From: a virus
Length of the DNA: 64,000 nucleotides
Strand: one strand, 5' to 3'
Virus record (IMG/VR): IMGVR_UViG_3300008262_006988
Position 1 is the first letter of the stretch. Every line of letters begins with the position of its first letter. The translations under genes and the position numbers were made by a program. Shown piece by piece: positions 7,326-22,740 of this stretch. Under the pieces are notes generated by a model, which was not told the DNA's origin, did not search any database, and saw only the letters and a list, made by a program, of their open reading frames with translations.

Positions 7326-8066
7326 ATGATAGTAAATTCACTATGGATAGGTAAAGGTTTTTCTTTACTAGAAAAACTTACAATGAAAAGTTTTATCGAT
7401 CATGGGTATGACTTTCACCTGTGGGTGTATAGTAAGGAGTTAGCGAAGCTCTGTCCTGCGGGTGTTAAAGTATGTGATGCAAATCAGATTATTACTAGCG
7501 ACCGTATTTTTACTTACGAAGGTGGAGGTGATTGTAGACGTGGTTCTCTTGGTGGGTTTTCTGATTTATTTAGATACTATCTACTTCTCAGTGTAGACGG
7601 TATCTATGTAGATATGGATGTAACGTGCTTATCACCATTTGTGATAGAAAGTGATTACGGTTTTAGACCACATAGTAATGTTACTGCAGTAGCAAATATT
7701 CTTAAAGCACCAAAAAATAGCGATTTTCTTAAACGCTGCATAGAATTAACAGAAAATCATATAGACAAGCACAATACTAACTGGGTTAAGCCTGTGCAAT
7801 TATTTTCTGATGTAGTGCACGAGTTCAATTACGAGAAGTATATATTCCCTTATGAGTATTTCGGATGCGATAAGTCAGTTGATACAAATAATTACAAAAC
7901 TAAAAATTATTTCCTGTATCGTAATTTGTTACCGAAATATGGTATACATTGGTGTCATGAATGCTCGTACGGTACATGGTCATACAGTGATGTATATAAC
8001 TGGAATGAGCCGAAACCCCTTTCTGTTTATTACAATTTGCTTCTTAAGCATAAACTTATCGATTAA
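7326..8066 (+). CDS. Glycosyltransferase, GT32-like (DXD sugar-binding)
   Basis: SLWIG..MKSF, FSDLFRYYLL..GIYVDMDV. Confidence 0.8.
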   Translation: MIVNSLWIGKGFSLLEKLTMKSFIDHGYDFHLWVYSKELAKLCPAGVKVCDANQIITSDRIFTYEGGGDCRRGSLGGFSDLFRYYLLLSVDGIYVDMDVTCLSPFVIESDYGFRPHSNVTAVANILKAPKNSDFLKRCIELTENHIDKHNTNWVKPVQLFSDVVHEFNYEKYIFPYEYFGCDKSVDTNNYKTKNYFLYRNLLPKYGIHWCHECSYGTWSYSDVYNWNEPKPLSVYYNLLLKHKLID

Positions 8067-8069
8067 CAG

Positions 8070-9743
8070 ATGTGTAGCATTTTTGTAGCAATAACAAAGA
8101 ATAATAAAAGAGTTGATCACCAGGCATGTATTTCTGCCTTACATACAACAAAATCACGTGGACCTGATAATACATATTACACTTCTAACGGTAGTGTTTT
8201 TATTGGTGTAAATGTTCTTTCGCTTACTGGATCTACTTCAGTTAAAGACTACACATGTGATAAAGGTATTCTCGGGTTTAATGGTGAAATTTATAATTAT
8301 AATAAGCAACAGTACGATTCCGACACACAGGCTCTCTTTTTAAAGCTTATATCGTCAAATGACAAGTGTAAAGTAACGCGCGAGATTGAAGGCATGTTTT
8401 GTTATGCATTTTATGATAAAACATCACACGACCTTTATTTAGCGCGCGATGTTTTCGGTGAGAGAACACTTTACATATATGAAAATGAGGATTTATTACT
8501 TGCTTCATCGACTCTTCATGGTATAGAAAAATATATTGGAAAATTGCATATTGCTGAAGATCTCATCTCTTCGTATTTTTATACTCGACATTTTTTAACG
8601 TATAATAGTACTGTATATAAAAATGTGAGGCAAATCTTGCCTGGTACAATAGAAGTGTATAATGTACGTAACTATTCAAAGAGAGTATATACATATGAAA
8701 GTATAGCAGATTATATTTGTAGTAAACAAATGCAAGAATATGCGCGTGCTAATGATGAGGAGATGGTGGAGGAGCTAGATAGTACTCTTGACCATGTAAT
8801 GAAACAGATGTTACCGCTTCATCATAGCAGTGTCAGTTTTTCAGGGGGTATTGATTCGTCGCTTATAGCGCATTATACTGCAAAACATACTAACGACTAC
8901 ACACTCATCGGTATAAATTGTGTAGGTAAGGATTATATCTCTAACGATCTTAAAAAATTTCAACCATACTTTAATAATCAGATAATAACATTAGATATTA
9001 AGGAAAAGCAGTGGTGTAGCACTGTAAAAGATAGTTATAATATCACTCTGCAACCTCTTGGGTCACATAATTATTGCACAAAAGTATTTCTTGCAAAGTA
9101 TTTACAAAAGAAAGGTATAAAAGTGTTGTTTGGTGGTGAAGGTGCTGATGAATTATTCGGTGGCTATGATTTTTACCATATAATTGACGATACGTGTAGA
9201 TATAATATATCACCATATTCGAGTAAATTAACCTCTGTTATCGACTTCGCTCATAAAATAAGTGAAAATCCTCAATCATACCTCGATAAAATATGGGAAA
9301 AAGCGTATAGTATATATAACAGTGCGGTTCTATCGACATCTTTCACCGATACATCACTTGTAGTTAATGATGATGGAGTACGTAATACCGATCAGATAGC
9401 AGGCTGGTATGGTATTGAGGGTAGAACGCCTTTCTTACATAAAAAAATGCTTAAATTTGCATTAAATTTACCTTCAAAGTATAAACGCGGAAAGCCCCTC
9501 TTAAGGAAGTTGTTTGAAAAAAAGTTTCCTACTGTGTCTATTGAAAAAAAACAAGGTTTTGCAGGTTTTCCAAATGAATCGCAAAAGTATTATGCTCTTG
9601 ATAATACTTTTACATTATTTAATATAAATGATCTAACAAAATACGATACTGCAACACAGTGGAAATTACTCAATATTTATTATTTTTATGAAAGCTATAA
9701 TAGTAGGAACATCAGCAGAGCTTCTCGAGCACGAGCATGGTGA
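8070..9743 (+). CDS. Asparagine synthetase B-like glutamine amidotransferase
   Basis: N-terminal Cys2, RGPD, FNGEIYN, ARDVFG, SGGIDS PP-loop, GEGADELFGGY, EGRTPFL. Confidence 0.9.
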   Translation: MCSIFVAITKNNKRVDHQACISALHTTKSRGPDNTYYTSNGSVFIGVNVLSLTGSTSVKDYTCDKGILGFNGEIYNYNKQQYDSDTQALFLKLISSNDKCKVTREIEGMFCYAFYDKTSHDLYLARDVFGERTLYIYENEDLLLASSTLHGIEKYIGKLHIAEDLISSYFYTRHFLTYNSTVYKNVRQILPGTIEVYNVRNYSKRVYTYESIADYICSKQMQEYARANDEEMVEELDSTLDHVMKQMLPLHHSSVSFSGGIDSSLIAHYTAKHTNDYTLIGINCVGKDYISNDLKKFQPYFNNQIITLDIKEKQWCSTVKDSYNITLQPLGSHNYCTKVFLAKYLQKKGIKVLFGGEGADELFGGYDFYHIIDDTCRYNISPYSSKLTSVIDFAHKISENPQSYLDKIWEKAYSIYNSAVLSTSFTDTSLVVNDDGVRNTDQIAGWYGIEGRTPFLHKKMLKFALNLPSKYKRGKPLLRKLFEKKFPTVSIEKKQGFAGFPNESQKYYALDNTFTLFNINDLTKYDTATQWKLLNIYYFYESYNSRNISRASRARAW

Positions 9744-10323
9744 TTATATTGATAGCTTTGATTATGTCGCTAGATCTATTTCTGTCGCGGAGTTTCCAGG
9801 ATACGAAACACACGTAGGTACCAAAACTAATATGTTTTGGTCAAAGTATCAATATCTTTTTCGGTTTAAGTATATATTACAAACATATTGTAATGATTTA
9901 TTATTACTTGAAGAAGACCCTGATGAATATAGAGAGAGCTTTTGTATAAACCATCGGTATGAGCGTTATAATCGGTTGTTTTTTGATTTATGGTATGCAA
10001 TGCTATCCTCTAAACACAATTTAAAAAACATTTTTTACTATAGTAGAAAAAACTTACACGATTTACATAAGAAGATGGGGTACAGATCGCATAACGATTG
10101 CAACACGCCAACAGTCTATTCAAGCGCAGGTGCACGTGTGTTAGATTTTTTTGTCAACAATACAGACTGTTTTAATGAAATATGGGTCACGGGGTTTTCT
10201 TTTTTTGATAAGGCTACGTATTTTAACCCTGCAACTAATCATATGGTACGAGAGCATTGCTACTATAAAGAAAAATACTTTTACAAAAATCTTTTAAAAG
10301 AGAAAAAAATATATGAACTCTGA
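9688..10323 (+). CDS. GT29 sialyltransferase-like protein, copy 1
   Basis: IIVGTS..G.YIDSFDYVAR..GYETHVGTKT (motif L), SAG (S), VTGFSFF..YF (III), HCYYKE (VS). Confidence 0.75.
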   Translation: MKAIIVGTSAELLEHEHGDYIDSFDYVARSISVAEFPGYETHVGTKTNMFWSKYQYLFRFKYILQTYCNDLLLLEEDPDEYRESFCINHRYERYNRLFFDLWYAMLSSKHNLKNIFYYSRKNLHDLHKKMGYRSHNDCNTPTVYSSAGARVLDFFVNNTDCFNEIWVTGFSFFDKATYFNPATNHMVREHCYYKEKYFYKNLLKEKKIYEL

Positions 10324-11086
10324 CTTACATAGCGTAGTAATAGTAGGTAACAGTTTGAATTTATTAGAGACCAAGAGAGGCGATGTAATAGATAACTGTG
10401 ATATTGTAGTACGTATGGGGAGTTACTGCATCGATGGTTATGAAGAATATGTTGGTACGAAGACAGATATTTTTTGTACAATTGCAAATATGTTTTGCAA
10501 AAATTCACCTGATGATTCTGTTCTTTTTGCACTCGACCCTGGAATGACTTCTTTTAATTTTAAAAAAATTTTATTTTTAGAATATGATTGCGATGACTAT
10601 TATGAATCCACTGTACATGGTAATTCTTGGGGTAGCGGTAGTATACCGATACCGCCTGCTGCTGCTGGCGCTTTATATTTTAAAAAACTCTGCTCTTCAG
10701 ATAAGTTCAAATTAGCGTTTCAAAATCATATTGTTATTGATAGAATGATTCTTGATTATTTTATAGAGTACTTGCAGCTTGTTAATAAGGATGTATGTGT
10801 TGAGTTTTATAATAGCCTTTGGCGATCGAGGCTTTTTGCTAACTTTAATAGTATATTTCCGCAAATGGACATAGCGGTACCATCAAAAGGAATGTATATA
10901 ATCGATTATATTTTAAGAACGTTTAAAGACAGTAAAATATACGTTTGCGGTTTTGATGGATTTAGGACCACAAATTATTGGAGGCAGCTCGGTCCACTAA
11001 CATACACTTTTAGGAGCCATCAGCCTGCAAAAGAACAGTATATGTATAAAAAATTATTACGCGAAGGAATTATACATGAGCTGTAA
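10313..11086 (+). CDS. GT29 sialyltransferase-like protein, copy 2
   Basis: VVIVGNS..IDNCDIVVRMG..GYEEYVGTKT, PSKG, GFDGF..YW, HQPAKE. Confidence 0.8.
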   Translation: MNSDLHSVVIVGNSLNLLETKRGDVIDNCDIVVRMGSYCIDGYEEYVGTKTDIFCTIANMFCKNSPDDSVLFALDPGMTSFNFKKILFLEYDCDDYYESTVHGNSWGSGSIPIPPAAAGALYFKKLCSSDKFKLAFQNHIVIDRMILDYFIEYLQLVNKDVCVEFYNSLWRSRLFANFNSIFPQMDIAVPSKGMYIIDYILRTFKDSKIYVCGFDGFRTTNYWRQLGPLTYTFRSHQPAKEQYMYKKLLREGIIHEL

Positions 11087-11792
11087 TAACATCATCATAG
11101 TAGGTAACGGTGGCTGCTTACTTAACTCTAAAAATGGTAGTAAGATCGACTCTTATGATTATGTTGTACGTATGGGAAACTGTATAACTCGTGGATACGA
11201 GGAACATACCGGGACAAAGACAGATTTATACAGAGCTTCATGGGATAGATTACTTCACAATATCAATAAAACAAATATATATAGACCTATCGATCTTAGT
11301 TTCACATTTCATACACTTCTTCTTCTCGAGCGACAACCCGATACTTTTCATGAGACGGTATCAACAATGCTTTTAAAAAACAATACAAAATTATTTAAAA
11401 AGCCTTTTTTTCCAGAAATTTCATTTCCAGATTTTATTTTTTTAAAAAGAAATGAGCGTATTACACATGAATGTTGTTTAGAATATTTTACTAAGAAATA
11501 TAATATACGTACAGTAGAGCATATGGATATTGATACAAGAGTAAATGTTTTTTTACAGGTTAATACCCCAGCGAAACAAAATATGGTATTACCGTCGAGC
11601 GGTATACTCACACTCGCACATATTATTAAGACGAGACCTAATGATAATATTACTATTACTGGGTTTGATGGTTTTACTACGAGATATTATTGGCGTGATT
11701 ATGAAACATACTTTGATGGTCATAGCTCTTACCGTGAAAAGATGTTTATAAAACAATTAGTGAAAGATGGTAGAATAAGCATACTCAATTAA
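11076..11792 (+). CDS. GT29 sialyltransferase-like protein, copy 3
   Basis: IIIVGNGG.LL..G..IDSYDYVVRMG..GTKT, PSSG, GFDGF..YYW, HSSYRE. Confidence 0.8.
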   Translation: MSCNNIIIVGNGGCLLNSKNGSKIDSYDYVVRMGNCITRGYEEHTGTKTDLYRASWDRLLHNINKTNIYRPIDLSFTFHTLLLLERQPDTFHETVSTMLLKNNTKLFKKPFFPEISFPDFIFLKRNERITHECCLEYFTKKYNIRTVEHMDIDTRVNVFLQVNTPAKQNMVLPSSGILTLAHIIKTRPNDNITITGFDGFTTRYYWRDYETYFDGHSSYREKMFIKQLVKDGRISILN

Positions 11793-11799
11793 CTCAAAG

Positions 11800-12498
11800 A
11801 TGAAACGTATTATTATTATCGGTAATAGCTGCAGCCTCTTAGAACAAAAAAACGGGGATATAATTGATGGTTATGACTATATTGTAAGAATGGGCGGTAC
11901 ACCACGCATTAAAGGTTATGAAAAACATGTGGGTACCAAAACTAACATGTATTGTATGAAGTGGTTCAAATATTTTAATGTAGAAGTGGGAATTAATGAT
12001 ACCAATTTTGGGCAGATGCGTGAAAAGTTAGAGATAGAATATGATGATGTATTGTGTCTGTTACAAGACCCTGATAATTTCTACGAAGTAGCGACACCTT
12101 TTCAGCGATATGAAAAAAATTCTTTAAACAGATCGTTTTACTATCAAATAGGTGATAGATATCTACATGATTCTGCAATCTTAAACTTTAACTTACAGCA
12201 AAAGCAATGGTATTTCTTTAATAGTATAGATATGCAACAGCTTGTATGCTATTTACAGGGATATGATTCTAATATACGTTATAATAATGGTATTGAACCT
12301 ACAGCTGGACTATGTGTTATTTGGTTTTTTATGCAAAATTTTTCAAATTGTGAAATAACAGTTACGGGATTTGATGGATTTAAGACCGGACATTATTGGA
12401 AGCCGGCAATTAGTACTTTTTTTCAAAGCCACAATGGTTTAAGCGAGTGGATGTTTATAAAAAAATTAATAAAACGCGGTGATATAAGACTATTATGA
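11800..12498 (+). CDS. GT29 sialyltransferase-like protein, copy 4
   Basis: IIIIGNS..IDGYDYIVRMG..HVGTKT, PTAG, GFDGF..HYW, HNGLSE. Confidence 0.8.
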   Translation: MKRIIIIGNSCSLLEQKNGDIIDGYDYIVRMGGTPRIKGYEKHVGTKTNMYCMKWFKYFNVEVGINDTNFGQMREKLEIEYDDVLCLLQDPDNFYEVATPFQRYEKNSLNRSFYYQIGDRYLHDSAILNFNLQQKQWYFFNSIDMQQLVCYLQGYDSNIRYNNGIEPTAGLCVIWFFMQNFSNCEITVTGFDGFKTGHYWKPAISTFFQSHNGLSEWMFIKKLIKRGDIRLL

Positions 12499-13175
12499 AT
12501 ATTGTAGTGGTAGGAAATGGTCGCAGCGATGTTATGAGAGGTAATCTAATAGATAGTTTTGATTATGTAGTGCGTATGGGTTCGTGTTGCATCGATGGAT
12601 ACGAGCATTATGTTGGTACGAAGACAAGTATGCTGCGTTCATCATGGGATAGATTTTTTGGAAAAAAAGAAGATGGTACTCATGAATTTGTAAGTAAAAT
12701 TATTGGTTTTACTGATTTTCTCTTTTTAGAGCCGTATTTTGAGCCATTTTATGAAACAATGCATTTCGGCAATGTGTATCATTTGTATAAGATTTTTAAT
12801 AAGCCACGTTTTTTACAAAAGAGATTTATTAGCATTAAAAACGAGCGTATTTTGCATGAAATGTTTATAAGAGAGCATCTTTCACAAAAAAATATCTTTT
12901 ATTATAATATAAAAGATAGGGTTTCGCTTTTTTGTGAGTATAATAGTATGTATAATGACAGAGTCTTACATATGCCTTCAGCAGGCCTCTTTACTATTGA
13001 TTATATAGTAAAAACGTTTACTGATAGTGATATCTATATCACAGGCTTTGATGGATTTAAGACAAAATATTACTGGAGAAGTAATGATGAATACTTTGAT
13101 TCTCATAGCTCCATTAAAGAACAGTTATATCTTAAAAAATTACTTACTAAAGGTATCATTAAAGAGTTGCCATAA
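12495..13175 (+). CDS. GT29 sialyltransferase-like protein, copy 5
   Basis: IVVVGNG..IDSFDYVVRMG..YVGTKT, PSAG, GFDGF..YYW, HSSIKE. Confidence 0.8.
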   Translation: MNIVVVGNGRSDVMRGNLIDSFDYVVRMGSCCIDGYEHYVGTKTSMLRSSWDRFFGKKEDGTHEFVSKIIGFTDFLFLEPYFEPFYETMHFGNVYHLYKIFNKPRFLQKRFISIKNERILHEMFIREHLSQKNIFYYNIKDRVSLFCEYNSMYNDRVLHMPSAGLFTIDYIVKTFTDSDIYITGFDGFKTKYYWRSNDEYFDSHSSIKEQLYLKKLLTKGIIKELP

Positions 13176-13207
13176 TAGTTTTTTTTATATATTATATACT
13201 TTTATAT

Positions 13208-13897
13208 ATGGTCAATATTTACGTTGGTTGGGATAGTAGAGAGGTAGAGGCTTATAATGTATGCTGTGAGTCAATTAAGAGCCGAACACAGAAAAGTATT
13301 AATTATAATATAATACCTCTTAAAAAGCACGAATTACAGACGAGCGGGTTGTATTCGAGAAATTCTGATCCGCTTGCATCAACAGAATTTACATATACAA
13401 GATTTCTCGTACCTCTTTTACAAGACTATAAAGGTCTCGCAATTTTTTGTGATTGTGATTTTCTGTGGCTTGAAGGTATAGATGCGTTGTTACATGATAT
13501 AGATATAGATACACACAAAGCTGTTTACGTCTGTAAGCATGATTATACCCCTTCTCAAGAGATAAAAATGGACAATAAAGTTCAATCCTCTTACCCGAGA
13601 AAAAATTGGTCAAGTTTGATTGTATGGAATTGTGATCATGAAAAAAATAAAGTTCTCACAAAAGAAAAAGTTAATAGTGAGACTGGAGCTTTTCTTCATA
13701 GATTTCAATGGTTAGATGATAATGAAATCGGTGATATAAATATTCAATGGAACTGGCTTGTGGGTGAGTACTGCGAGGAGCAGCACGGATCACCAAAAGC
13801 TTTACATTATACAAATGGAGGACCGTGGTTTGAAAATTATAAAAATTGTCCTTACGCTTCTGTTTGGAATAAAGAACGCGATAGAATTGCATTTTAA
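13208..13897 (+). CDS. GT-A glycosyltransferase (GT8/CDI-like)
   Basis: IYVGWDSRE, STEFTYTRFLVP, DCD, YPRKNWSS, WNWL, LHYTNGGPW. Confidence 0.85.
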   Translation: MVNIYVGWDSREVEAYNVCCESIKSRTQKSINYNIIPLKKHELQTSGLYSRNSDPLASTEFTYTRFLVPLLQDYKGLAIFCDCDFLWLEGIDALLHDIDIDTHKAVYVCKHDYTPSQEIKMDNKVQSSYPRKNWSSLIVWNCDHEKNKVLTKEKVNSETGAFLHRFQWLDDNEIGDINIQWNWLVGEYCEEQHGSPKALHYTNGGPWFENYKNCPYASVWNKERDRIAF

Positions 13898-14168
13898 GTT
13901 TACTTCTCATCGCCGCATTACATATAAAAAGCAGAGTTGCAATTTAAGGCGACATCAACCCAAGAAACAAGATTATAAAAAACGCAATAAACTCGCCGGT
14001 CAATTTTTTGATTTTAATCAGCCTTGCCCGCCTATGATAAAAAATTGCATGGAATTGCGTGTACAGTACGAGAATGAAGTGAAAAAGCTCGAAAGCTATA
14101 AACTCTGTACACAGTGTAGTATTTTATTTTTGAGACAAAATATTATTGCATCTTTTGAAGTTGACTGA
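13887..14168 (+). CDS. Small 4-Cys protein A (probable TTG start)
   Basis: FFDFNQPCPPMIKNCMELR..CTQC; paralogue of 15095..15322; start uncertain. Confidence 0.6.
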   Translation: MHFKFTSHRRITYKKQSCNLRRHQPKKQDYKKRNKLAGQFFDFNQPCPPMIKNCMELRVQYENEVKKLESYKLCTQCSILFLRQNIIASFEVD

Positions 14169-15021
14169 TTATATCAAAACTCGATTTACCGTAAAGTGTA
14201 CCGTTAGTACTACAATTCTTACATGCATCATCGATACGTTTACCGTTTGCTAAATTATGCCTTACATCGGTCAACTGTTTACTAAACCAAAGATCATAAA
14301 AAGATGTATTCATTATATTACCAAGACCTGTTTGCTGCCTGTGCCAATCATTGCAGCATAAAACAATATCACCATTCCAATCTATTGTAATCCTATAAAA
14401 TGGTATAAAGCATTGTTGCTTTACTTTATTAAATTTAATATTTGTTACAGCGCCTGCTCTGTTGTTAAAATTCCACTCTTCAACTGTCTGCTCTAACGTC
14501 TGACTCTCTTTATCGTACCAAAGCCGTCTTAGTGCATATTTTTTAAAAGGTATTTTAGCAAACATTTGTTCTCGTGCAATAGCTTGATCTTCACCGTCAT
14601 AACAATCTACAACAATTCTATCTACATGATCTTTTATTTTTTCTACGTCATCACAGGTTAAAAAATCACCGTTTGTTGTGAGCTCTACATAGCACTCACG
14701 TAGCTCGTTCTTAATGTGAATAATATAATCGAGTATATTAGAATTGAGCAGTGGTTCGCCGAACCCTGAGATATGTATCGCTCCTTTATAGTTATTTTCC
14801 TTGAGTTGTTCAATAAGGCGATCTATAACCTTTCGATCCATTTGTAATTTTCTGTTCGGGTAAACTGCGGAATCATGCCTCGGGCAAAATACACATTTAC
14901 GGTTACAAAGCTCTGTAACATTTAATTCTATAGTTGTAAGACCTATCAATTTACCATATCTCTGCTCTTCAATAAATTGTTTATGAATAATATCACGCGT
15001 GTTTATATGATCTAACGACAT
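14143..15021 (-). CDS. Radical SAM enzyme with C-terminal SPASM/twitch domain
   Basis: CNRKCVFC, GFGEPLL, LTTNG, CFIPF..IDWNGDIVLCC..CKNC. Confidence 0.9.
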   Translation of the reverse strand: MSLDHINTRDIIHKQFIEEQRYGKLIGLTTIELNVTELCNRKCVFCPRHDSAVYPNRKLQMDRKVIDRLIEQLKENNYKGAIHISGFGEPLLNSNILDYIIHIKNELRECYVELTTNGDFLTCDDVEKIKDHVDRIVVDCYDGEDQAIAREQMFAKIPFKKYALRRLWYDKESQTLEQTVEEWNFNNRAGAVTNIKFNKVKQQCFIPFYRITIDWNGDIVLCCNDWHRQQTGLGNIMNTSFYDLWFSKQLTDVRHNLANGKRIDDACKNCSTNGTLYGKSSFDIISQLQKMQ

Positions 15022-15094
15022 TGTTAAATATTTTAAGCTATTATTTTTGTTATTGCAACATATTATAAAGTATATAAGTACTATATACGGTTAC

Positions 15095-15322
15095 ATGAAT
15101 CCTGTATTAACATTTTTTGAACTTGATCAGCCTTGTCCCTCAGAGATACCGCTATGTAATGAATTACGTAAGAAGTATATTCAGGATGTAGAGTTAGCGA
15201 GTGCAAAACACTGTAAAAAGTGCGAATTGACAAGCATAAAAGCAAAATATACAACAGTGGTATGGGAGCAATACATGGAACATATGACTTCAAAAAATAA
15301 AAAACAAGATATACTTTTATGA
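15095..15322 (+). CDS. Small 4-Cys protein B
   Basis: MNPVLTFFELDQPCPSEIPLCNELR..CKKC; TATAAGTA at 15073-15080 upstream. Confidence 0.7.
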   Translation: MNPVLTFFELDQPCPSEIPLCNELRKKYIQDVELASAKHCKKCELTSIKAKYTTVVWEQYMEHMTSKNKKQDILL

Positions 15323-16356: not shown

Positions 16357-16359
16357 TTC

Positions 16360-16367
16360 TATAAATA
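16360..16367 (+). promoter_or_regulatory. T4-type late promoter TATAAATA
   Basis: Exact consensus in a 20-bp intergenic gap. Confidence 0.7.
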
Positions 16368-16376
16368 TACAAGCAT

Positions 16377-16571: not shown

Positions 16572-16722
16572 GCTAGAAGAGCGGCCGGACGGTAAATACG
16601 ATATTTTTGTGGATTATACCGAAGAATTTGAAGAGACATTAAAGAGTATTCTCGATAAAAAGAGAATAACAAAAAAAGATGTAGCGAATTTTATTCTTGA
16701 GTCACTCGGTTTAGGTCAATAA
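16543..16722 (+). CDS. 59-aa hypothetical protein absent from the ORF track
   Basis: MKIKGIKTLELEERPDGKYDIFVDYTEEFEETLKSILDKKRITKKDVANFILESLGLGQ; fills the gap, TAATG overlap with the next gene. Confidence 0.65.
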   Translation: MKIKGIKTLELEERPDGKYDIFVDYTEEFEETLKSILDKKRITKKDVANFILESLGLGQ

Positions 16723-16937
16723 TGAATACAATTAGCCTTACTAAAACACATGTAACAGCATCGGGTTCGGTGCATGCGCAGATAAAAATTAATAACAATG
16801 ATGTGGGGTTACTTTATCTAACACCGCGAGAAATTGACGTACTTACAAATGCATTGCGTGATGGGTTGCTTAACAGTAATACAGCACTCGAAACGGACTT
16901 ATTTGATGAAGAGTACAGTGATGAAGAGTTATACTAA
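16722..16937 (+). CDS. Small hypothetical protein with acidic tail
   Basis: TAATG coupling at both ends. Confidence 0.6.
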   Translation: MNTISLTKTHVTASGSVHAQIKINNNDVGLLYLTPREIDVLTNALRDGLLNSNTALETDLFDEEYSDEELY

Positions 16938-17614
16938 TGCTTGTTTTTGATGCAGAAAAGCACGTTTATAAAAACAAGTATACAGGTGATGTTTATACAT
17001 CTGTAACTACCCTGCTGGGTAAGTATAAAGCTCCATTCGACTCACAGGCTGCGGCACTCAAAGTAGCTCAGCGTGAAAAATGTTCGGTAGAAGAGATCCT
17101 TGCAAGATGGAAAGAAGCGAATGAAGCCAGCAAAGTTTATGGTACAAAAATACATAGTGCTATAGAGACATATCATAAATCGGGTTACGTAGAACCGGAG
17201 TATAAAGATCTGATTAGCTCTTACAGGCAACTCGGTATTGTCGATGAGCTCGATGAAATACAGTCAGAGCAGCAAGTTTATCTGCATGAATATCAAATTG
17301 CTGGTACAGCAGATATTATTCGACATGAAAAAAATGGTTGTTTTAGTATCTTTGATATAAAGACAAACAAAAAATTTAATTTAGCTAATCAGTACAATAC
17401 TAGGCTACTTCCACCCTTTGACCATCTCACTTCTTGCGAATACACTATATATGCTTTACAGCTCTCTCTTTATGCATATATGTATCAAAATAATACCGGT
17501 AGAAATGTAAATCAATTGGGGATATTTTTTTACGAACGTGAGAAAAATAAGTTTATATACTACCCGGTAATATACTTAAAGCATGATATCAAAAGAATAC
17601 TTCAAACATTATGA
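16937..17614 (+). CDS. PD-(D/E)XK exonuclease
   Basis: SVTTLL, GTKIHSAIE, IAGTADII, FDIKT, YALQLSLYA. Confidence 0.85.
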   Translation: MLVFDAEKHVYKNKYTGDVYTSVTTLLGKYKAPFDSQAAALKVAQREKCSVEEILARWKEANEASKVYGTKIHSAIETYHKSGYVEPEYKDLISSYRQLGIVDELDEIQSEQQVYLHEYQIAGTADIIRHEKNGCFSIFDIKTNKKFNLANQYNTRLLPPFDHLTSCEYTIYALQLSLYAYMYQNNTGRNVNQLGIFFYEREKNKFIYYPVIYLKHDIKRILQTL

Positions 17615-18066
17615 ATAGACCAAACTGGGACGAGCATGCATTGATGTTAGCTTATACTGCTACTTGCAGAAGCCCTGATCCTCATGTAAAAGTTGGTGCT
17701 TGTGCACTCGATATACATAATAATGTTCTCGGTGTAGCATACAATGGTCTTGCACCTGGCAAAGAAGTAACGAAGTTCTTCTGGGATGATAGAGATAAAA
17801 GACGTCCGTTTGTAATACACGCTGAAACTAATCTTCTTTCACGCATACAAATAGGAGCTGTACATACTATTGCCTGTACATTATTACCTTGTTCTTCATG
17901 TGCGAGAGCTATAGCTGCACATAAGGCGAAGCGTGTTATATACAGCGAAACTTATGACCGTGATACCGAAGGTCTTCGTATATTTGATTTCTATAACATT
18001 GAAGTTATAAATATACCAAAAAACCGTGTAGTAGAATATATTAAAACAGCATATGAAATTCATTGA
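17611..18066 (+). CDS. dCMP deaminase
   Basis: RPNWDE, KVGAC, YNG, IHAETN, PCSSC. Confidence 0.9.
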   Translation: MNRPNWDEHALMLAYTATCRSPDPHVKVGACALDIHNNVLGVAYNGLAPGKEVTKFFWDDRDKRRPFVIHAETNLLSRIQIGAVHTIACTLLPCSSCARAIAAHKAKRVIYSETYDRDTEGLRIFDFYNIEVINIPKNRVVEYIKTAYEIH

Positions 18067-18538
18067 AACAATATTACAATGCAGTCAAATTAAAGAAGCG
18101 AAATTATATGGAGCTGCTAAAAAAGCTGCTGAATCACCCGAGACGGGTGTTATTATACAAAAACCCGCAGCATTTCATGTTATCCGTGATTGCGCAACAC
18201 TTGCTTACAAATATCTACCTCACTACGTCTTCGGGCACTATGCAAACCCATTTGAAGTATTAAAAGGTAAATTTACAAAACGAGACATAGAAGAGTTTCT
18301 TGCAAGCGCAAATTCTGATATTGTTAACTTCCATTTACTTGCCTTAATCCTAGAGAAAATAAGAAAGAGTACTAATATTCAGACAACAGCAGTACCTGAA
18401 CAGCAAATTAATCTCAAGACAGCTCTCTCATCCGATGATCCTTACGGAGATTACGAATCATATGGTGCAGAAGAGGTGCAAGTTGTTCAACTTGACAACC
18501 TAACCCTTCTTTGTAGAGCATTTAATGTATTAACATAA
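18053..18538 (+). CDS. Hypothetical protein
   Basis: 161-aa ORF in operon. Confidence 0.6.
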   Translation: MKFIETILQCSQIKEAKLYGAAKKAAESPETGVIIQKPAAFHVIRDCATLAYKYLPHYVFGHYANPFEVLKGKFTKRDIEEFLASANSDIVNFHLLALILEKIRKSTNIQTTAVPEQQINLKTALSSDDPYGDYESYGAEEVQVVQLDNLTLLCRAFNVLT

Positions 18539-18548
18539 ATACTCATTG

Positions 18549-18905
18549 ATGAAATTTACAGGTACACTATTACGTATTATCAATCAACTACGTATGTATC
18601 ACTGGCTTTGTGATACATACGCACAGCACAAAGCATACGGAAGTGCATATGATGATTTAAGTGATCTTGTCGATGCATTTACCGAGGTATATATGGGTAA
18701 GTACGGTAAGACTAGCAATAATATAACTCTCAATATCGAGTTGAGCGCAGATACCGCTACATCAACAGAGTTCATTGATTCAGCTATTAACTTTTTGTTA
18801 AAGATAAACGAAATGGCGAGTGAAGAAGATACCGATCTTCTTAATATAAGAGACGAAATGCTTAGCTCTCTTAATAAGTTGAAATATTTGCTTACTCTTC
18901 ACTAA
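18549..18905 (+). CDS. Ferritin-like four-helix protein (DUF5856-like)
   Basis: YHW..YAQHKAYG..YD.L.DLVDAFTEVYMGKYG..DLLNIRDEM..LKYLLTL; CATAAATA at 18534-18541. Confidence 0.8.
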   Translation: MKFTGTLLRIINQLRMYHWLCDTYAQHKAYGSAYDDLSDLVDAFTEVYMGKYGKTSNNITLNIELSADTATSTEFIDSAINFLLKINEMASEEDTDLLNIRDEMLSSLNKLKYLLTLH

Positions 18906-20331
18906 CAAATTTTTTTACGATATCTAAGAACGGTTGTTCAGGTACACGTGTTTTAAAAACGTTAAAGTTATATTTCGCAATTTGCTTAGCTTTCATAAAA
19001 AGAGCATTATATTCTTCTTCTGGTAGTTTTAAAATTTTATTCACAACTTCAGTAATTTTATTCATTCGTATTTGTGGGTCTTCTTCATCATCATAGCTCT
19101 CATCCCATAAATTAGCAAACGTCATATAACCACACGTCTTTAAGAATTTTAAGATACCTGGCTGACCGAGAACAATAAACGGTGCCTTAAATGCTATCGG
19201 TTTATATGTCTTTTCAGTTATAAACCGATATGCACAGTTTGTTGTATTTCTTGTCTCTGCTATAGTCTCGGTGACAATATGTATATCGCAATTTCGATAC
19301 ATATCCATATTAAACGTATTCCAGTGATTATATTTAAAAAAATCACTAGCCGTAAATTGATTGTTCATGTGTTGATTCTCATATGCACCTTGTATAGTTT
19401 CAGTATCAAATTCTGTAAAAAGCGGTAGTTTTGCTAAAAAAAGTTCTATATCTTTTTTTTCATTTTTTGTTATTTTTTGTGGGTCAAAAAAGCGATAGCT
19501 TTCTAATATATTATTTCTTGTTGTGTAGGGTGATAATTTTAAAAGCTTGTCGTACGTTATTTCTTCAAGACTTACGCAAATATTATTAAAGCTGTAGTTG
19601 TTCTGTCTCCATATTTGGTAACACAAAAAATATCTGTGTTGACGTGGTCTCGCATTTAATAATAGCATTCTATATTTGCTATACTTTTTCGTTATTTTTG
19701 TAAAGTGTGTATAAGTATGTCGCATATAGAAATTATATGCGCGTTTCGTTACACATTCAAAAAACGGCCAAAAAACTACATTAAATTTAAATGGTAATCT
19801 TCGTACGTTGCAGTCGTTTGACGTAAAGATGATTACTTTTTCTATATCGAGCTGTATTTGATCACAAAAATTTTTTAATGTTTCATAATGTTTGTCAGTA
19901 TAAAATGACGCTTCTGACATATCATTAATAATAAACAAACATTGTTTATTGTTTATACTATAAACGTGTTCAGGTGTTAGGAGGTCCTTTAAAAAATTTT
20001 TATGTATATCATCCTCTATCAGTTTAATCATGTAACGCGGACTGATCGTATATACAAATTTCTCGTGTGTCAGTATTATATCAGATAGTTTCTTACGGTT
20101 GACTTTAAATTGAGTGCTTAAAATTGTCTCAGGAAGAATATGATAATCATGGCGTGTAATAGTACATGTAAATTGTCTGTTGTCAGGAAATTTAAACAAT
20201 CTTTCAAAATCATCACCGTTAATATAAGTGTATAAATTCGCGTAATGGTTAAAAAACCTACCGTCACTTTTTGAACTTACTTGCGGGCTATCGCAGAGCT
20301 TATTATAAGCAAAATTTATTGAACCATACAT
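18892..20331 (-). CDS. Putative GT10 (fucosyltransferase-like) fold glycosyltransferase
   Basis: IVTET..FITEKTYKPI..PFIVLG resembles the GT10 ENS..YITEK..P(V/I)V.G motif; LNARPRQHR. Confidence 0.55.
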   Translation of the reverse strand: MYGSINFAYNKLCDSPQVSSKSDGRFFNHYANLYTYINGDDFERLFKFPDNRQFTCTITRHDYHILPETILSTQFKVNRKKLSDIILTHEKFVYTISPRYMIKLIEDDIHKNFLKDLLTPEHVYSINNKQCLFIINDMSEASFYTDKHYETLKNFCDQIQLDIEKVIIFTSNDCNVRRLPFKFNVVFWPFFECVTKRAYNFYMRHTYTHFTKITKKYSKYRMLLLNARPRQHRYFLCYQIWRQNNYSFNNICVSLEEITYDKLLKLSPYTTRNNILESYRFFDPQKITKNEKKDIELFLAKLPLFTEFDTETIQGAYENQHMNNQFTASDFFKYNHWNTFNMDMYRNCDIHIVTETIAETRNTTNCAYRFITEKTYKPIAFKAPFIVLGQPGILKFLKTCGYMTFANLWDESYDDEEDPQIRMNKITEVVNKILKLPEEEYNALFMKAKQIAKYNFNVFKTRVPEQPFLDIVKKFVSEE

Positions 20332-21437
20332 TGAAGTGAAGATATTAAATTCTGAAGCTTATTGTGATTAATAAGATGTTTTACTTTAATTTGTTGATAT
20401 GTCTCAATAATCTCTTTAATTGTTTCTGTAGGTAATGTATGTATGCTTACTTCTGGTAGCAGCTCATCATATGCAACTGTAATACCTTCTTTAACTTTAC
20501 CGTTTTCATGGATACCCTTAATGCGTGTACCAAGAACACCCGAGACATTATTGAAACATATATTTATATTAAAATCATCACAAAACTTAAGTATATCGGG
20601 TATATCACGCCAGTTTTGTATCATTGGACACACTGCTACACTATTAAAAATTTTACGACGGTTTTTATTCTCATATTCTTGTATAGATGTTATATTTTTT
20701 AGCACTGTATTAAGATCGCCGCCACGACGTATAAATTTATATGTATCATGGTTGAGTGAATCAATAGAAATACAGACTATTACGTCTTTATACCTGTCAA
20801 AAATATCAAATACTTTTTGATTTAAAATGCTACCGTTGGTTGTGATACAAATCTCAATGTTTGGATTATAGGTATAAAGCATCTCCCATATCTTATAGTA
20901 TAAAGGTGTTGCAAACGGCTCACCACCAAGAAATTTCGCACATTGTAAATGTGGAGCAAAGAGAGTCAGTTGTTTTAAGAACTCGTCATCATATGGCGAC
21001 ACAAGTGGTGGTAGTTTTTCGCGGTTTTTGCGTATAGATGAAGACCAATCTCCTCCGCACATAATACACTCATAGTTACATATTGATGACATCTCAAATT
21101 CCAGCATAACTGGAAAAATGCTATTTAACTTGAATTGTTTATGGTGAAATGCTGCGAGAAGTGAGTTATGATAATTGCCGGATGATATTTGCTTGTAGCA
21201 ACTTGTACAACCTTTTGTAAAGTCAAAACTATCAATAGCTTTACGCATTTCTTTTATTTTTTCACCGAACCATATATCAGTAAGTGAAGATTCAGGGTAT
21301 CTCCCGAGTTCGTAGTCCCTGCTCATACAGCATGCTGATATAATACCTGTAGATTTAAAATTAAGTGATACAAAGGGCGCGTTGCAGACATGCTGCTTGG
21401 CAGTAAGAAAGTCAAATACTTGCTTTATATCACTCAT
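20316..21437 (-). CDS. Radical SAM enzyme with N-terminal SPASM/twitch domain
   Basis: CNAPF..SACC..CTSC, then CNYECIMC, GGEPF, ITTNG, SIDS. Confidence 0.9.
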   Translation of the reverse strand: MSDIKQVFDFLTAKQHVCNAPFVSLNFKSTGIISACCMSRDYELGRYPESSLTDIWFGEKIKEMRKAIDSFDFTKGCTSCYKQISSGNYHNSLLAAFHHKQFKLNSIFPVMLEFEMSSICNYECIMCGGDWSSSIRKNREKLPPLVSPYDDEFLKQLTLFAPHLQCAKFLGGEPFATPLYYKIWEMLYTYNPNIEICITTNGSILNQKVFDIFDRYKDVIVCISIDSLNHDTYKFIRRGGDLNTVLKNITSIQEYENKNRRKIFNSVAVCPMIQNWRDIPDILKFCDDFNINICFNNVSGVLGTRIKGIHENGKVKEGITVAYDELLPEVSIHTLPTETIKEIIETYQQIKVKHLINHNKLQNLISSLQCMVQ

Positions 21438-21472
21438 ATATTATAATTAAAGTATTATAATATAATTACTAC

Positions 21473-22093
21473 ATGCGTTATCCACTTTTAATAAAGGTAA
21501 ATTTTTTAATAGACAAAATTATTCTATTTGTTGGTCTTTTGCAGTGTTTAAAGTTTTGGAAAAGAAGTTTTTTTATAAGAAAAAAAAAGCAAATTGATAT
21601 TCTTTGTGTATATGATAAGAAGCATCATCATATAGAGCAAATCATACAGCAGCATACACAAAAGAGTGTATTGTGTTATGAACTCAGCAATTGCACGAAT
21701 ACACAAATATGTGAGCGCGTATATACGCTTTGTAATTTTTATCAACCTGCAATATTGCTTGTAATATTTGCGAAAACAAATTATGATGCCCCTTCTTTTA
21801 GTGCAGAAGATAATACCTCGACAACAAGAAAATGTTACGAGACCGATGATTTCTATAAAACACGCATAGTTACATACTTTTTACGGTTTGTTCATACATT
21901 TCTCTTAATAAAGACGATATGTAAATGCAATAATATTAAATTATACTGGTATCTACCGCAAAATACTATAGCTATGGTCAATAAAAAACAAAATTATAGA
22001 TTATTTAATGATGATGAAACAGTTGTATGCTTACCTTATAGGGGTAAAGAAAGCATTGATATTGTAATTCAACAGTTTTTGCAACAATTATGA
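21473..22093 (+). CDS. Hypothetical protein (degenerate SGNH-like?)
   Basis: C-terminal LIKTICKCNNIKLYWY shared with the neighbour. Confidence 0.5.
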   Translation: MRYPLLIKVNFLIDKIILFVGLLQCLKFWKRSFFIRKKKQIDILCVYDKKHHHIEQIIQQHTQKSVLCYELSNCTNTQICERVYTLCNFYQPAILLVIFAKTNYDAPSFSAEDNTSTTRKCYETDDFYKTRIVTYFLRFVHTFLLIKTICKCNNIKLYWYLPQNTIAMVNKKQNYRLFNDDETVVCLPYRGKESIDIVIQQFLQQL

Positions 22094-22740
22094 CACTATA
22101 CGAGCTTCAATTGTATAATAATTTTATTAATGACATATTACCTCAAAAAAAATTACGTAATGTTTTTTTGTTGTGTGATGATTATGAGTATAGTGATGAT
22201 GTGGGTATTTTTGTTCTCGGTAAATCTGAGTACTATACTTCCAATGTCGAGAATTGGTGTACAGAACTATCGCAGCATATAAACTTGTCTGTTAAACACA
22301 TACCATCCAATTTTACACAGGATATTAACGGCTATAGTTCAAACGAAGATTTTATACCACATTTGTATTATATTTTACAGAGTAAGAATATTAAAGCTGT
22401 TATAATAAATTGTCAAAGATACAAGTGCTTTACCGGCATAAAACAAACAGAAAAAATAATGACACGTCGCTGTACTTTTTTTAAGGATAACACTAAGCAT
22501 TATACAGATATTATTGAAGCGTTTTTTCACTATTTAAAAACATGTATAATTTTTATAAAACTTTGTGACTATTATAATGTAAAACTTGTTTTAATAGACA
22601 CAGATCGTACTCATACTGGGGTTTTATGGTCATTTTTTAGATTTGTATTTTTACCACGCAATAAAAATACACTTGTTATTACTGGAAAAGGAGTATGTGA
22701 TAAATTTTTATTAAAAGTAGTAAAATTTCTTAAAAAATAA
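22090..22740 (+). CDS. Hypothetical protein (degenerate SGNH-like?)
   Basis: NWCTELSQHINL..GYSSNEDF..FIKLCDYYNVKLVLI; no GDS motif. Confidence 0.5.
   Translation: MTLYELQLYNNFINDILPQKKLRNVFLLCDDYEYSDDVGIFVLGKSEYYTSNVENWCTELSQHINLSVKHIPSNFTQDINGYSSNEDFIPHLYYILQSKNIKAVIINCQRYKCFTGIKQTEKIMTRRCTFFKDNTKHYTDIIEAFFHYLKTCIIFIKLCDYYNVKLVLIDTDRTHTGVLWSFFRFVFLPRNKNTLVITGKGVCDKFLLKVVKFLKK

What the first reader, a model, noticed from the sequence alone, without database searches (positions are those of the whole stretch)
7326..22740. Candidate complete phage glycan-building system: GT32, amidotransferase, 5x GT29, GT8-like, GT10-like and two radical SAM enzymes
Seen: eight glycosyltransferase-like genes of four families, an AsnB-like enzyme and two SPASM/twitch radical SAM enzymes, placed between two tail-fibre modules; 7326-14168 is one tightly coupled run. 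Known: AsnB-like proteins in polysaccharide loci (WbpS type) amidate uronic acids, and twitch radical SAM enzymes such as BtrN oxidise sugars. Inference: the phage builds a complex, amidated, ulosonic-acid-capped glycan on virion proteins, the host envelope (superinfection exclusion) or DNA. The target cannot be determined from sequence.
Basis: partly seen in the sequence, partly recalled or inferred. Interest (0 to 1): 0.82.

Follow-up and report, generated by a model that had tools for sequence, protein, structure and literature searches.

The report
Phage sialyltransferase-like glycan gene cassette
An uncultured T4-like marine phage carries, next to its tail-fibre genes, a conserved operon of eight sugar-adding enzymes, five of them copies of the sialyltransferase family best known from animals, so it probably builds an acidic sugar chain; its target is unknown and it is not a complete pathway.

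Summary
Window 7326-13897 is one tightly packed operon: a GT32-like transferase, an AsnB-type glutamine amidotransferase, five diverged GT29 genes and a GT8-fold transferase. All five GT29 copies pass Pfam's cut-off and carry sialylmotifs L, S, III and VS. A radical SAM/SPASM gene follows on the other strand.

The "GT10-like" gene (18892-20331) is a GT-B fold transferase of undecided family. It pairs with an N-terminal-twitch radical SAM gene.

"Complete system" is not supported.
- 15047-18905 holds unrelated genes: a nuclease, a dCMP deaminase and small ORFs.
- No sugar-nucleotide synthesis, priming transferase or exporter was found among the ORFs scanned.

Co-conservation is supported.
- A close relative keeps the same block in the same place. 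Its glycan genes are only 39-67% identical, against 80-96% for its structural genes. It also carries four extra GT29 copies elsewhere.
- In unrelated viral contigs, GT29-like genes recur beside radical SAM/SPASM, GT8-like, GT32-like and AsnB-like genes, and beside CMP-ulosonate pathway genes.

All enzymes are predicted soluble. I read this as a cytoplasmic cassette adding ulosonic acids, most likely to fibre or virion proteins (about 0.4), or else to host envelope precursors (about 0.3).

Other first-stage notes of this scan flag this same stretch. I found no paper describing GT29 arrays in phages.

The parts
7326..8066 (+). GT32-like glycosyltransferase (Gly_transf_sug, DxD motif), first gene of the operon
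   Evidence: PF04488 E 1.9e-6, 28.9 bits against cut-off 23. The L001 orthologue is 67% identical. A PF04488 gene also lies in the L004 GT29/rSAM cluster.
8070..9743 (+). AsnB-type glutamine-dependent amidotransferase (Ntn glutaminase plus PP-loop synthetase)
   Evidence: GATase_7 and Asn_synthase. TIGR01536 scores 176 bits, below its cut-off of 267. Cys2 and the SGGIDSS PP-loop are read. The L001 orthologue is 45% identical. AsnB-like genes lie near GT29 in L029.
9688..10323 (+). GT29a, the most diverged sialyltransferase-like paralogue
   Evidence: PF00777, 36.7 bits. Pairs with L001 8631-9269 at 49% identity, SH-aLRT 100.
10313..11086 (+). GT29b, a long-branch paralogue with an insertion
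   Evidence: PF00777, 44.3 bits. Motifs L, S, III and VS present. Long branch of 1.83.
11076..11792 (+). GT29c, the best-conserved paralogue
   Evidence: PF00777, 76.6 bits. PDB hits ST6GalNAc2 at 6e-10 and ST3Gal1 at 5e-7 over motif L. 25 metagenomic homologues at 27-80% identity.
11800..12498 (+). GT29d
   Evidence: PF00777, 54.5 bits. Groups with P0025 and L001 9259-9978, SH-aLRT 98.
12495..13175 (+). GT29e
   Evidence: PF00777, 38.4 bits. Groups with P0016-P0018 and L001 10713-11426, SH-aLRT 95.
13208..13897 (+). GT8-fold (GT-A, DxD) glycosyltransferase, PHROG 28018
   Evidence: phrog_28018 at 8.7e-57. AF2 pLDDT 81; Foldseek matches WbbM, 3tzt, LgtC, glycogenin and UGGT. Orthologues lie next to GT29 or rSAM genes in L001, L030, L036 and L039.
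13887..14168 (+). Small 4-Cys protein, paralogue of 15047-15322; last gene of the run (start codon uncertain)
   Evidence: 41% identical over 44 aa to 15047-15322, E 6e-9. A homologue follows the GT8-like gene in L001.
14143..15021 (-). Radical SAM enzyme with a C-terminal SPASM/twitch domain (rSAM1)
   Evidence: PF04055 plus PF13186. CX3CX2C read. 590 homologues at E<=1e-10. Adjacent to GT29 or GT8-like genes in L004, L030 and L036.
15047..15322 (+). Second small 4-Cys protein (membership in the cassette uncertain)
   Evidence: not found near rSAM1 homologues in L004, L030 or L036.
18892..20331 (-).
   Evidence: No Pfam, PHROG or NCBIfam hit. AF2 pLDDT 78. Foldseek finds OtsA and SdgB at E 2e-4; VIA gives Z 11.4 to T4 BGT and 10.9 to FucT. 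77 homologues, none with a Pfam domain.
20316..21437 (-). Radical SAM enzyme with an N-terminal twitch domain (rSAM2), overlapping the GT-B gene by 16 nt
   Evidence: SPASM at residues 18-81 and Radical_SAM at 116-286. NF033640 N_Twi_rSAM at 1e-43, 150 bits against cut-off 170.
21473..22093 (+). Unknown protein with a hydrophobic N-terminus (membership uncertain)
   Evidence: No family hit. KD19 of 2.08 at residue 5. No detectable similarity to 22090-22740.
22090..22740 (+). Possible SGNH/GDSL-fold protein without an evident catalytic serine (membership uncertain)
   Evidence: The ESM Atlas model matches GDSL-type esterases at TM 0.62. No Pfam hit.

Best explanation
The core (7326-15021) is a conserved phage glycan-assembly cassette that works in the infected cell's cytoplasm.

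Proposed roles:
- Five old, non-redundant GT29 paralogues each transfer a CMP-activated 2-keto-3-deoxy (ulosonic) acid, such as Kdo or a nonulosonic acid, to a different acceptor or linkage.
- The GT32-like and GT8-fold DxD enzymes add hexoses from NDP-sugars.
- The AsnB-type enzyme amidates a carboxylate of the glycan or its precursor. It would use glutamine and ATP through an acyl-adenylate.
- The radical SAM/SPASM enzyme tailors a sugar or the acceptor.

Donors must come from the host or from genes outside the window. The most likely acceptor is the phage's own fibre or other virion proteins made from the flanking operons.

The GT-B plus N-twitch radical SAM pair (18892-21437) is a second, separate glycan unit. 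The stretch 15047-18905 does not belong to either.

Shown: enzyme families, motifs, folds, synteny and recurrent gene association. Inferred: donor class, the chemistry of AsnB and the radical SAM enzymes, and the acceptor.

My sub-confidences: a real glycan module 0.85; an ulosonic-acid donor 0.65; a virion protein target 0.4.
For: - Families and motifs.
- Folds: GT8-like and GT-B.
- Operon packing: coordinates.
- Synteny: contig IMGVR_UViG_3300044644_002471 keeps fibre-o5264-o5793-GT32-AsnB-GT29 x4-GT8-like-small Cys protein in the same order.
- Orthology: window GT29a and GT29d each pair, and GT29c and GT29e each group, with a distinct copy in that relative (SH-aLRT 95-100). The copies are therefore old and kept separately.
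- Recurrence in unrelated contigs: L004 has an aminotransferase, GT29 x3, rSAM/SPASM x3 and a GT32-like gene. L030 and L036 have GT29, rSAM1-like and GT8-like genes. L039 has a GT8-like gene next to GT29. L029 is a complete 144-kb phage with AsnB-like, CTP_transf_3, sulfotransferase, GT29 and rSAM/SPASM genes.
- Donor context: among 148 genes within 2.5 kb of GT29-like genes in 26 loci, CTP_transf_3 occurs 6 times, NeuB twice and DAHP_synth_1 twice. There is also an HMGL-like/CTP_transf_3 fusion.
- Contig-length fingerprints link GT29c, rSAM1 and GT-B homologues on further contigs of 13154, 19797, 58689, 27302, 17186 and 4249 bp. The method is validated by P0010 being identical to L001 10001-10723.
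- Cytoplasmic action: no transmembrane segment in any GT, AsnB or rSAM protein.
- Virion target: the cassette lies between fibre modules. It is far more diverged than the structural genes, 39-67% against 80-96%. The relative has a second GT29 array beside the baseplate and tail module.
- Precedent, not read here: Freeman et al. 2023 on mycobacteriophage virion glycosylation, known only as reference 61 of PMC12801897.
Against: - No biochemical data exist for any prokaryotic or phage GT29. Petit et al. 2018 could not predict function.
- No CMP-ulosonate synthetase was found in the window. tblastn with four phage CTP_transf_3 proteins gave nothing below E 0.3, and the Pfam scans found none.
- Gene position near fibres is weak evidence, because T4-like phages gather accessory genes at such sites. 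The GT8-like homologue of pelagiphage Mosig sits in a replication-gene region.
- The published reading of similar cyanophage gene sets is host surface modification (PMC12801897).
- rSAM1 is on the opposite strand. Its homologues in S-SCSM2R and L004 pair with an aminotransferase, so it may belong to a different small pathway.
Confidence: 0.4

Rival explanations
1. Host envelope remodelling. The soluble transferases act on host lipid-linked LPS core, O-unit or capsule intermediates at the inner face of the membrane. Host exporters then carry the altered, ulosonic-acid-rich glycan to the surface. This would block superinfection or stop progeny sticking to infected cells and debris.
For: - GT8 and GT32 folds are typical of LPS and capsule enzymes (LgtC and WbbM matches).
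- Large cyanophages carry comparable sets: 13 GTs plus KdsA and KdsB in S-SCSM2R. Their authors read these as host cell-surface modification (PMC12801897).
- Bacterial GT29 occur mostly in marine proteobacteria and were linked speculatively to LPS (PMC5811610).
- The lack of priming and export genes fits reliance on host machinery.
Against: - No membrane anchor on any enzyme.
- The family is nearly absent from bacterial genomes: 4 loci, all MAG contigs, in 185,579 species genomes. This gives no sign of recent capture from a host LPS locus.
- The cassette is fixed between fibre genes in two related phages.
Confidence: 0.3
2. There is no single pathway. The stretch is a hypervariable accessory island where independent glycan-related genes have gathered. 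The GT29 array, AsnB, the radical SAM genes and the GT-B gene would serve separate, unrelated ends.
For: - 15047-18905 is unrelated to glycans.
- rSAM1, the GT-B gene and rSAM2 are on the opposite strand.
- The glycan genes diverge much faster than the backbone, and copy number differs between relatives.
- GT8-like homologues occur without GT29 in cultured phages.
Against: - 7326-13897 is translationally coupled and syntenic in the relative.
- The same combination of families recurs in unrelated contigs.
Confidence: 0.15
3. DNA hypermodification. The transferases and tailoring enzymes decorate modified bases of the phage genome to evade restriction, as T4 glucosylates hydroxymethylcytosine.
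For: - The GT-B model's top VIA match is T4 beta-glucosyltransferase at Z 11.4, tied with many other GT-B enzymes.
- A dCMP deaminase and a nuclease lie between the two units.
- An unchecked first-stage note reports another GT-B gene beside the replication genes.
Against: - No base hydroxymethylase or DpdA-type gene was seen among the scanned ORFs.
- To my knowledge, no GT29, GT8 or GT32 enzyme has been shown to act on DNA.
- The cassette sits in the fibre region, not the nucleotide-metabolism region.
Confidence: 0.05

Closest known systems
Bacterial GT29 sialyltransferase-like proteins (Petit et al. 2018, PMC5811610)
   Same: Short soluble proteins that carry sialylmotifs L, S, III and VS. 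They lack the transmembrane stem and the L-S disulfide cysteines of animal enzymes. Function is untested.
   Different: Here the genes are phage-borne, in tandem arrays of 5 (at least 9 in a relative), and embedded in an operon with AsnB, GT32-like and GT8-like genes. That paper does not mention phages. Only 4 loci were found in 185,579 species genomes.
Cell-wall/LPS gene sets of large T4-like cyanophages (P-SSM2, S-SCSM1, S-SCSM2R; PMC12801897)
   Same: T4-like marine myoviruses with many glycosyltransferases and sugar-tailoring genes. S-SCSM2R shares homologues of the GT8-like gene (46%), AsnB (24.5%) and the radical SAM/SPASM gene (27%).
   Different: None of the listed S-SCSM2R transferases is GT29. 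tblastn of GT29c against 50,697 phage records gave one partial hit. S-SCSM2R encodes KdsA and KdsB; this window has no donor-synthesis gene.
Animal and poxvirus GT29 sialyltransferases (e.g. ST6GalNAc2 6apj, ST3Gal1 2wnb)
   Same: Same Pfam family and the same four motifs, including the His-x4-Glu of motif VS.
   Different: No type II membrane anchor, stem or disulfide. They are about 210-260 aa against more than 300. They act in a bacterial cytoplasm. Donor and acceptor are unknown.
Virion glycosylation by mycobacteriophage-encoded glycosyltransferases (Freeman et al. 2023, cited in PMC12801897, reference 61)
   Same: Phage-encoded soluble transferases next to structural genes. This is the functional model adopted here for the target.
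   Different: Different enzyme families and host type, and no ulosonic-acid transferases.
Cytoplasmic flagellin glycosylation with pseudaminic or legionaminic acid (Maf/FlmG systems; bioRxiv 10.1101/2022.03.25.485807)
   Same: CMP-nonulosonic acids are transferred directly to Ser/Thr of a filament protein in the cytoplasm, without a lipid carrier. MptE-like (Maf-type) domains occur twice among the neighbours of phage GT29 genes.
   Different: The transferases there are Maf/FlmG, not GT29. There is no evidence here for the acceptor.

Membership tests
GT29 (Pfam PF00777, sialyltransferase family) | Score above Pfam's gathering cut-off | tested here: met
   All five copies score 36.7-76.6 bits against a cut-off of 23.
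GT29 (Pfam PF00777, sialyltransferase family) | Sialylmotifs L, S, III and VS, including the His and Glu of motif VS | tested here: met
   Alignment A1 of 30 sequences: the motif L block, PSxG...GFDGF, YW and H-x4-E. E221 is invariant and H216 is in at least 90% of rows. All five window copies have the His and Glu. Motif L aligns to ST6GalNAc2 and ST3Gal1.
GT29 (Pfam PF00777, sialyltransferase family) | GT-A variant 2 fold | not tested
GT29 (Pfam PF00777, sialyltransferase family) | Transfer from a CMP-activated ulosonic acid | not testable with these tools
   Context only: CTP_transf_3, NeuB and KdsA-family genes lie beside GT29-like genes in other phage contigs.
GT29 (Pfam PF00777, sialyltransferase family) | Type II membrane topology and the L-S disulfide of the eukaryotic enzymes | tested here: not met
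   The proteins start at motif L and have no hydrophobic segment. The motif L cysteine is present only in GT29c. Bacterial GT29 are the same.
Asparagine synthetase B / class II glutamine amidotransferase | N-terminal nucleophile Cys2, GATase domain, PP-loop SGGxDS, Asn_synthase domain | tested here: met
   PF13537 at 7e-13 and PF00733 at 5e-27. The protein begins MCSIF and contains SGGIDSS.
Asparagine synthetase B / class II glutamine amidotransferase | Equivalog-level match to true AsnB (TIGR01536) | tested here: not met
   176 bits against a cut-off of 267. It is an AsnB-family amidotransferase, not shown to make asparagine.
GT8 | Sequence match to the family model | tested here: not met
   No Pfam family at E<=0.01. 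A profile of five orthologues finds no GT8 chain in the PDB by sequence.
GT8 | GT-A fold like LgtC or glycogenin, with a DxD motif | tested here: met
   Foldseek finds WbbM at 1.2e-8, 3tzt at 1.6e-7, LgtC at 1e-6 and glycogenin at 7e-6, with TM 0.55-0.64. D82-x-D84 is invariant in A3.
GT10 (alpha-1,3/4-fucosyltransferases) | Sequence or fold match specific to GT10 | tested here: inconclusive
   No Pfam hit. H. pylori FucT (Z 10.9) and FUT9 (Z 9.6) are tied with T4 BGT, PimA and other GT-B enzymes. A conserved ..TEK.. motif (E373, K374 invariant in A2) recalls GT10 and GT11. That resemblance is from memory.
GT32 (Gly_transf_sug) | PF04488 above cut-off, with a DxD motif | tested here: met
   28.9 bits against 23. 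DMD is seen in the translation.
Radical SAM with SPASM/twitch auxiliary cluster domain | CX3CX2C motif plus a Cys-rich SPASM-type domain | tested here: met
   PF04055 and PF13186 in both genes. The domain is C-terminal in rSAM1 and N-terminal in rSAM2. rSAM2 scores 150 bits on NF033640 against a cut-off of 170.
BtrN-type sugar dehydrogenase | Specific relationship to BtrN, or activity on a sugar substrate | not testable with these tools
   The best NCBIfam hits cover only the generic radical SAM core. The 'BtrN' labels on Campylobacter phage homologues (27-28% identity) are depositors' names.
Complete polysaccharide assembly locus (Wzx/Wzy or ABC type) | Priming phosphoglycosyltransferase, flippase or ABC exporter, polymerase, sugar-nucleotide synthesis | tested here: not met
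   None appears among the Pfam, NCBIfam or PHROG results for the ORFs of 7326-22740 or the other window ORFs scanned. The only membrane-like proteins are DUF1360 and 21473-22093.

The most novel reading that the evidence does not exclude
Marine T4-like phages 'sialylate' their own virions. Tandem, fast-evolving GT29 paralogues would add different ulosonic acids or linkages directly to fibre proteins in the cytoplasm. This would give an acidic, variable glycan coat that tunes adsorption or masks the fibres. These phage arrays belong to a reservoir of more than 1,400 clusters of minimal GT29 genes, much of it viral. That reservoir bears on how the 'eukaryotic' sialyltransferase family spread between domains.
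Probability: 0.3. Interest if true: 0.85.

Novelty: new variant of a known kind. Interest (0 to 1): 0.62.

Why it matters
GT29 is the family that makes all animal sialoglycans. Its prokaryotic members are few, recently noticed and uncharacterised.

What this work adds:
- They form conserved tandem arrays in phage operons.
- They keep recurring company with radical SAM/SPASM, GT8-fold, GT32-like and AsnB-type enzymes, and with CMP-ulosonate pathway genes.
- They belong to a family of over a thousand 50%-identity clusters in metagenomes, while almost none turn up in bacterial species genomes.

This gives a concrete, testable entry point to three questions. What do prokaryote-type GT29 enzymes transfer? 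Do marine phages glycosylate their fibres or their hosts? Could viruses have carried this family between lineages?

The short, soluble enzymes may also be useful catalysts for ulosonic-acid glycoengineering.

Tried and rejected
- Near-identity DNA search of 7326-14168 against 50,697 phage records found no match.
- A single-protein scan of IMG/VR with GT29c found no relative. The alignment-based scan was needed.
- The metagenome-contig scan gave 135 GT29-like stretches, the best only 31% identical (60% over short motif-L pieces). The 60-80% relatives seen in the protein database could not be fetched there.
Synteny in the closest relatives (P0002, P0003, P0009, P0013) could only be inferred from shared contig lengths.
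- No whole genome is held for the window. The rest of the roughly 169-kb contig could not be searched for KdsB, NeuA or NeuB.
- Sequence searches of the PDB with the GT-B and GT8-like genes or their profiles gave nothing significant.
- The promoter and terminator scan is uninformative in this AT-rich DNA: 102 promoter-like sites against 92 expected. The TTGATT-N17-TATTAT site at 7286-7314 exists but is not above chance.
- The ESM Atlas gave nothing for 5850-7283.
- PADLOC shows only generic radical SAM (pVip) and Cas4-like hits.
- The idea that 21473-22093 and 22090-22740 are paralogues was rejected: no similarity.
- The idea that the small 4-Cys proteins are obligate partners of rSAM1 was rejected. 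They are absent beside rSAM1 homologues in L004, L030 and L036.

Full report
**Setting.** The window is part of an uncultured, low-GC (about 34%) T4-like myovirus.
- It encodes a large terminase, a tail sheath, a gp6-type wedge protein, a T4 baseplate protein, a clamp-loader subunit and a dUTPase.
- The terminase is at most 38% identical to that of any cultured phage.
- The 6.8-kb core of the finding has no near DNA match among 50,697 phage records.
- No whole genome is held for the window.
- The protein database shows the window's own proteins on a contig of 168,849 bp.

**The observation: the core operon.**
- 7326-8066 matches PF04488 above its cut-off and has a DxD motif.
- 8070-9743 has the GATase_7 and Asn_synthase domains, begins with the Cys2 nucleophile and keeps the SGGIDSS PP-loop. 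It scores below the equivalog cut-off for true asparagine synthetase.
- Five consecutive genes (9688-13175) each pass the gathering score of PF00777.
- In a 30-sequence alignment they show the four sialylmotifs: the motif L block, PSxG...GFDGF, YW and His-x4-Glu. The Glu is invariant and the His nearly so.
- Motif L of the best copy aligns to human ST6GalNAc2 and pig ST3Gal1.
- 13208-13897 has no Pfam hit. Its model (pLDDT 81) matches GT8 enzymes, and it keeps an invariant DxD.
- From 7326 to about 14168 the genes overlap or are at most 32 nt apart.
- On the opposite strand lies a 292-aa radical SAM enzyme with a C-terminal SPASM/twitch domain.

**The observation: the rest of the stretch.**
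- The "GT10-like" gene (18892-20331) belongs to a family of 77 detectable homologues, none with a Pfam domain.
- Its model (pLDDT 78) is a two-Rossmann GT-B enzyme. T4 beta-glucosyltransferase, PimA and fucosyltransferases are tied, so GT10 membership is undecided.
- It overlaps by 16 nt a radical SAM gene whose twitch domain is N-terminal. That gene sits near, but under, the cut-off of NF033640.
- 22090-22740 may have an SGNH fold without an evident catalytic serine.
- 21473-22093 is unknown and is not its paralogue.
- Between the two units, 15047-18905 encodes small proteins, a DUF1360 membrane protein, a PD-(D/E)XK nuclease, a dCMP deaminase and DUF5856. None of these is a glycan function.
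- Both flanks are fibre-type: a Peptidase_S74 fibre on the left; an alpha/beta-hydrolase with a fibre-like N-terminus, DUF285 and a tail-tip domain on the right.
- The stretch therefore holds eight glycosyltransferase-like genes. It is two units plus unrelated genes, not one complete system.
- No sugar-nucleotide synthesis, priming transferase, flippase or polymerase gene was found among the roughly 47 window ORFs scanned.

**Co-conservation in a close relative.** The best comparison is IMG/VR contig 3300044644_002471 (loci L001 and L003).
- Its baseplate, tail and replication genes are 80-96% identical to the window's.
- It keeps, in the same order, the fibre genes, the two following ORFs, GT32, AsnB, four GT29 genes, the GT8-like gene and the small 4-Cys protein.
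- These glycan-block genes are only 39-67% identical.
- A quick maximum-likelihood tree pairs window GT29a and GT29d, and groups GT29c and GT29e, each with a different copy of that contig (SH-aLRT 95-100).
- The paralogues are therefore old and separately retained, which argues for distinct roles.
- The same relative carries four more, recently duplicated GT29 genes. They are inserted at the site that corresponds to window 41677-41736, beside the dUTPase gene.

**Co-conservation further afield.** The same families recur together in unrelated viral contigs.
- L004: three GT29, three radical SAM/SPASM, a GT32-like gene and an aminotransferase.
- L030 and L036: GT29, then an rSAM1 homologue directly followed by the GT8-like gene.
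- L039: the GT8-like gene next to GT29.
- L029, a complete 144-kb phage: AsnB-like, a CTP_transf_3 cytidylyltransferase, a sulfotransferase, GT29 and radical SAM/SPASM.
- Homologues of GT29c, rSAM1 and the GT-B gene also share contig lengths (13154, 19797, 58689, 27302, 17186 and 4249 bp). This implies further co-occurrence.
- That fingerprint is validated by P0010 being identical to the L001 copy.

**What the GT29 genes probably transfer.**
- Among 148 genes lying within 2.5 kb of GT29-like genes in 26 non-redundant viral loci, CTP_transf_3 appears six times. This is the CMP-Kdo and CMP-nonulosonate synthetase family.
- NeuB and the KdsA-type DAHP_synth_1 family each appear twice.
- One locus has an aldolase-cytidylyltransferase fusion.
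- This context, together with the family's known chemistry, supports CMP-activated ulosonic acids as donors.
- The window itself has no cytidylyltransferase. Donors must come from the host, or from parts of the genome I could not read. CMP-Kdo exists in Gram-negative cells (established knowledge).
- Unchecked first-stage notes mention further sugar-tailoring genes outside the window.

**Where it acts.**
- None of the transferases, AsnB or the radical SAM enzymes has a hydrophobic segment. The chemistry is therefore cytoplasmic.
- The acceptor could be a phage protein or a host lipid-linked intermediate.
- Three observations tip me slightly towards virion or fibre proteins (about 0.4): the fixed position between fibre operons in two related phages; divergence far above the genomic backbone; and near-absence of this GT29 type from 185,579 bacterial species genomes, with only four MAG contigs.
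- Host-envelope remodelling is the published reading of cyanophage glycosyltransferase sets (PMC12801897). It remains a strong rival (about 0.3).
- DNA modification is unlikely.

**Comparison with what is known.**
- Petit et al. 2018 (PMC5811610) reported 23 bacterial GT29 sequences. They have the same four motifs, no membrane anchor and no disulfide cysteines, and their function is unknown. Phages are not mentioned.
- The S-SCSM2R paper lists 13 glycosyltransferases as possibly the record for a marine phage. None is listed as GT29.
- tblastn of GT29c against cultured-phage records finds one partial hit.
- One Azotobacter phage paper annotates a sialyltransferase in passing, family not given.
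- A profile of the phage-type sequences finds 5,646 representative clusters at E<=1e-3 and 1,402 at 1e-10. Most of the top hits are 170-260 aa and start at motif L.
- The kind (phage glycan islands, prokaryotic GT29) is known. The variant appears undescribed: tandem GT29 arrays in a conserved operon with AsnB, GT32-like, GT8-fold and radical SAM partners.

**Limits.**
- No GT29 structure was predicted.
- The tree is the quick version.
- Donor, acceptor and the roles of AsnB and the radical SAM enzymes are inferred.

Noticed in passing
L003:7889-10675 (IMGVR_UViG_3300044644_002471); corresponds to window 41677-41736: The close relative has four recently duplicated GT29 genes (226-231 aa, branch lengths about 0.1). 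They are inserted between the dUTPase gene and the 156-aa gene, a site that is empty in the window.
   Followed up: partly
window 13887-14168 and 15047-15322: Two paralogous small proteins (41% identical over 44 aa) with a CPx5C...Cx2C pattern flank the opposite-strand radical SAM gene. A homologue follows the GT8-like gene in L001, but none is seen beside rSAM1 homologues elsewhere.
   Followed up: partly
window 22934-24421 (-): An alpha/beta-hydrolase (Peptidase_S9/DLH-type serine hydrolase hits) with a fibre-like N-terminus, at the end of the right-hand fibre operon. It may be a virion-borne esterase.
   Followed up: partly
L029:5280-12517 (IMGVR_UViG_3300033149_003715, 144 kb, terminal repeats): A complete unrelated phage has this gene order: methyltransferase, AsnB-like, cupin, CTP_transf_3, sulfotransferase, GT29-like, unknown, radical SAM/SPASM. 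It is a parallel cassette that includes donor activation.
   Followed up: partly
L005, L006, L008, L011, L015, L020 and others (about 10 loci): One phage lineage carries a short (about 170 aa) GT29-like gene followed directly by a GDP-mannose 4,6-dehydratase. The pair lies about 2.7 kb upstream of the large terminase gene.
   Followed up: no
L041:5483-7204: A 573-aa fusion of an HMGL-like aldolase with a CTP_transf_3 cytidylyltransferase. It lies beside a UDP-glucose/GDP-mannose dehydrogenase-family gene, an epimerase and a GT29-like gene. It may make and activate an ulosonic acid in one protein.
   Followed up: no
L128:11070-12684 (Synechococcus phage S-SCSM2R) and L004:5279-8387: An aminotransferase lies beside or close to a radical SAM/SPASM gene in both a cultured cyanophage and an IMG/VR contig (in L004 two GT29 genes lie between them). 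The radical SAM enzyme may belong to an amino-sugar sub-pathway.
   Followed up: no
window 5850-7283 (+): An acidic 477-aa protein (net charge about -30) lies between the fibre genes and the GT32-like gene. It has no hit in Pfam, PHROGs or the ESM Atlas, yet it is syntenic (39% identity) in the relative.
   Followed up: partly
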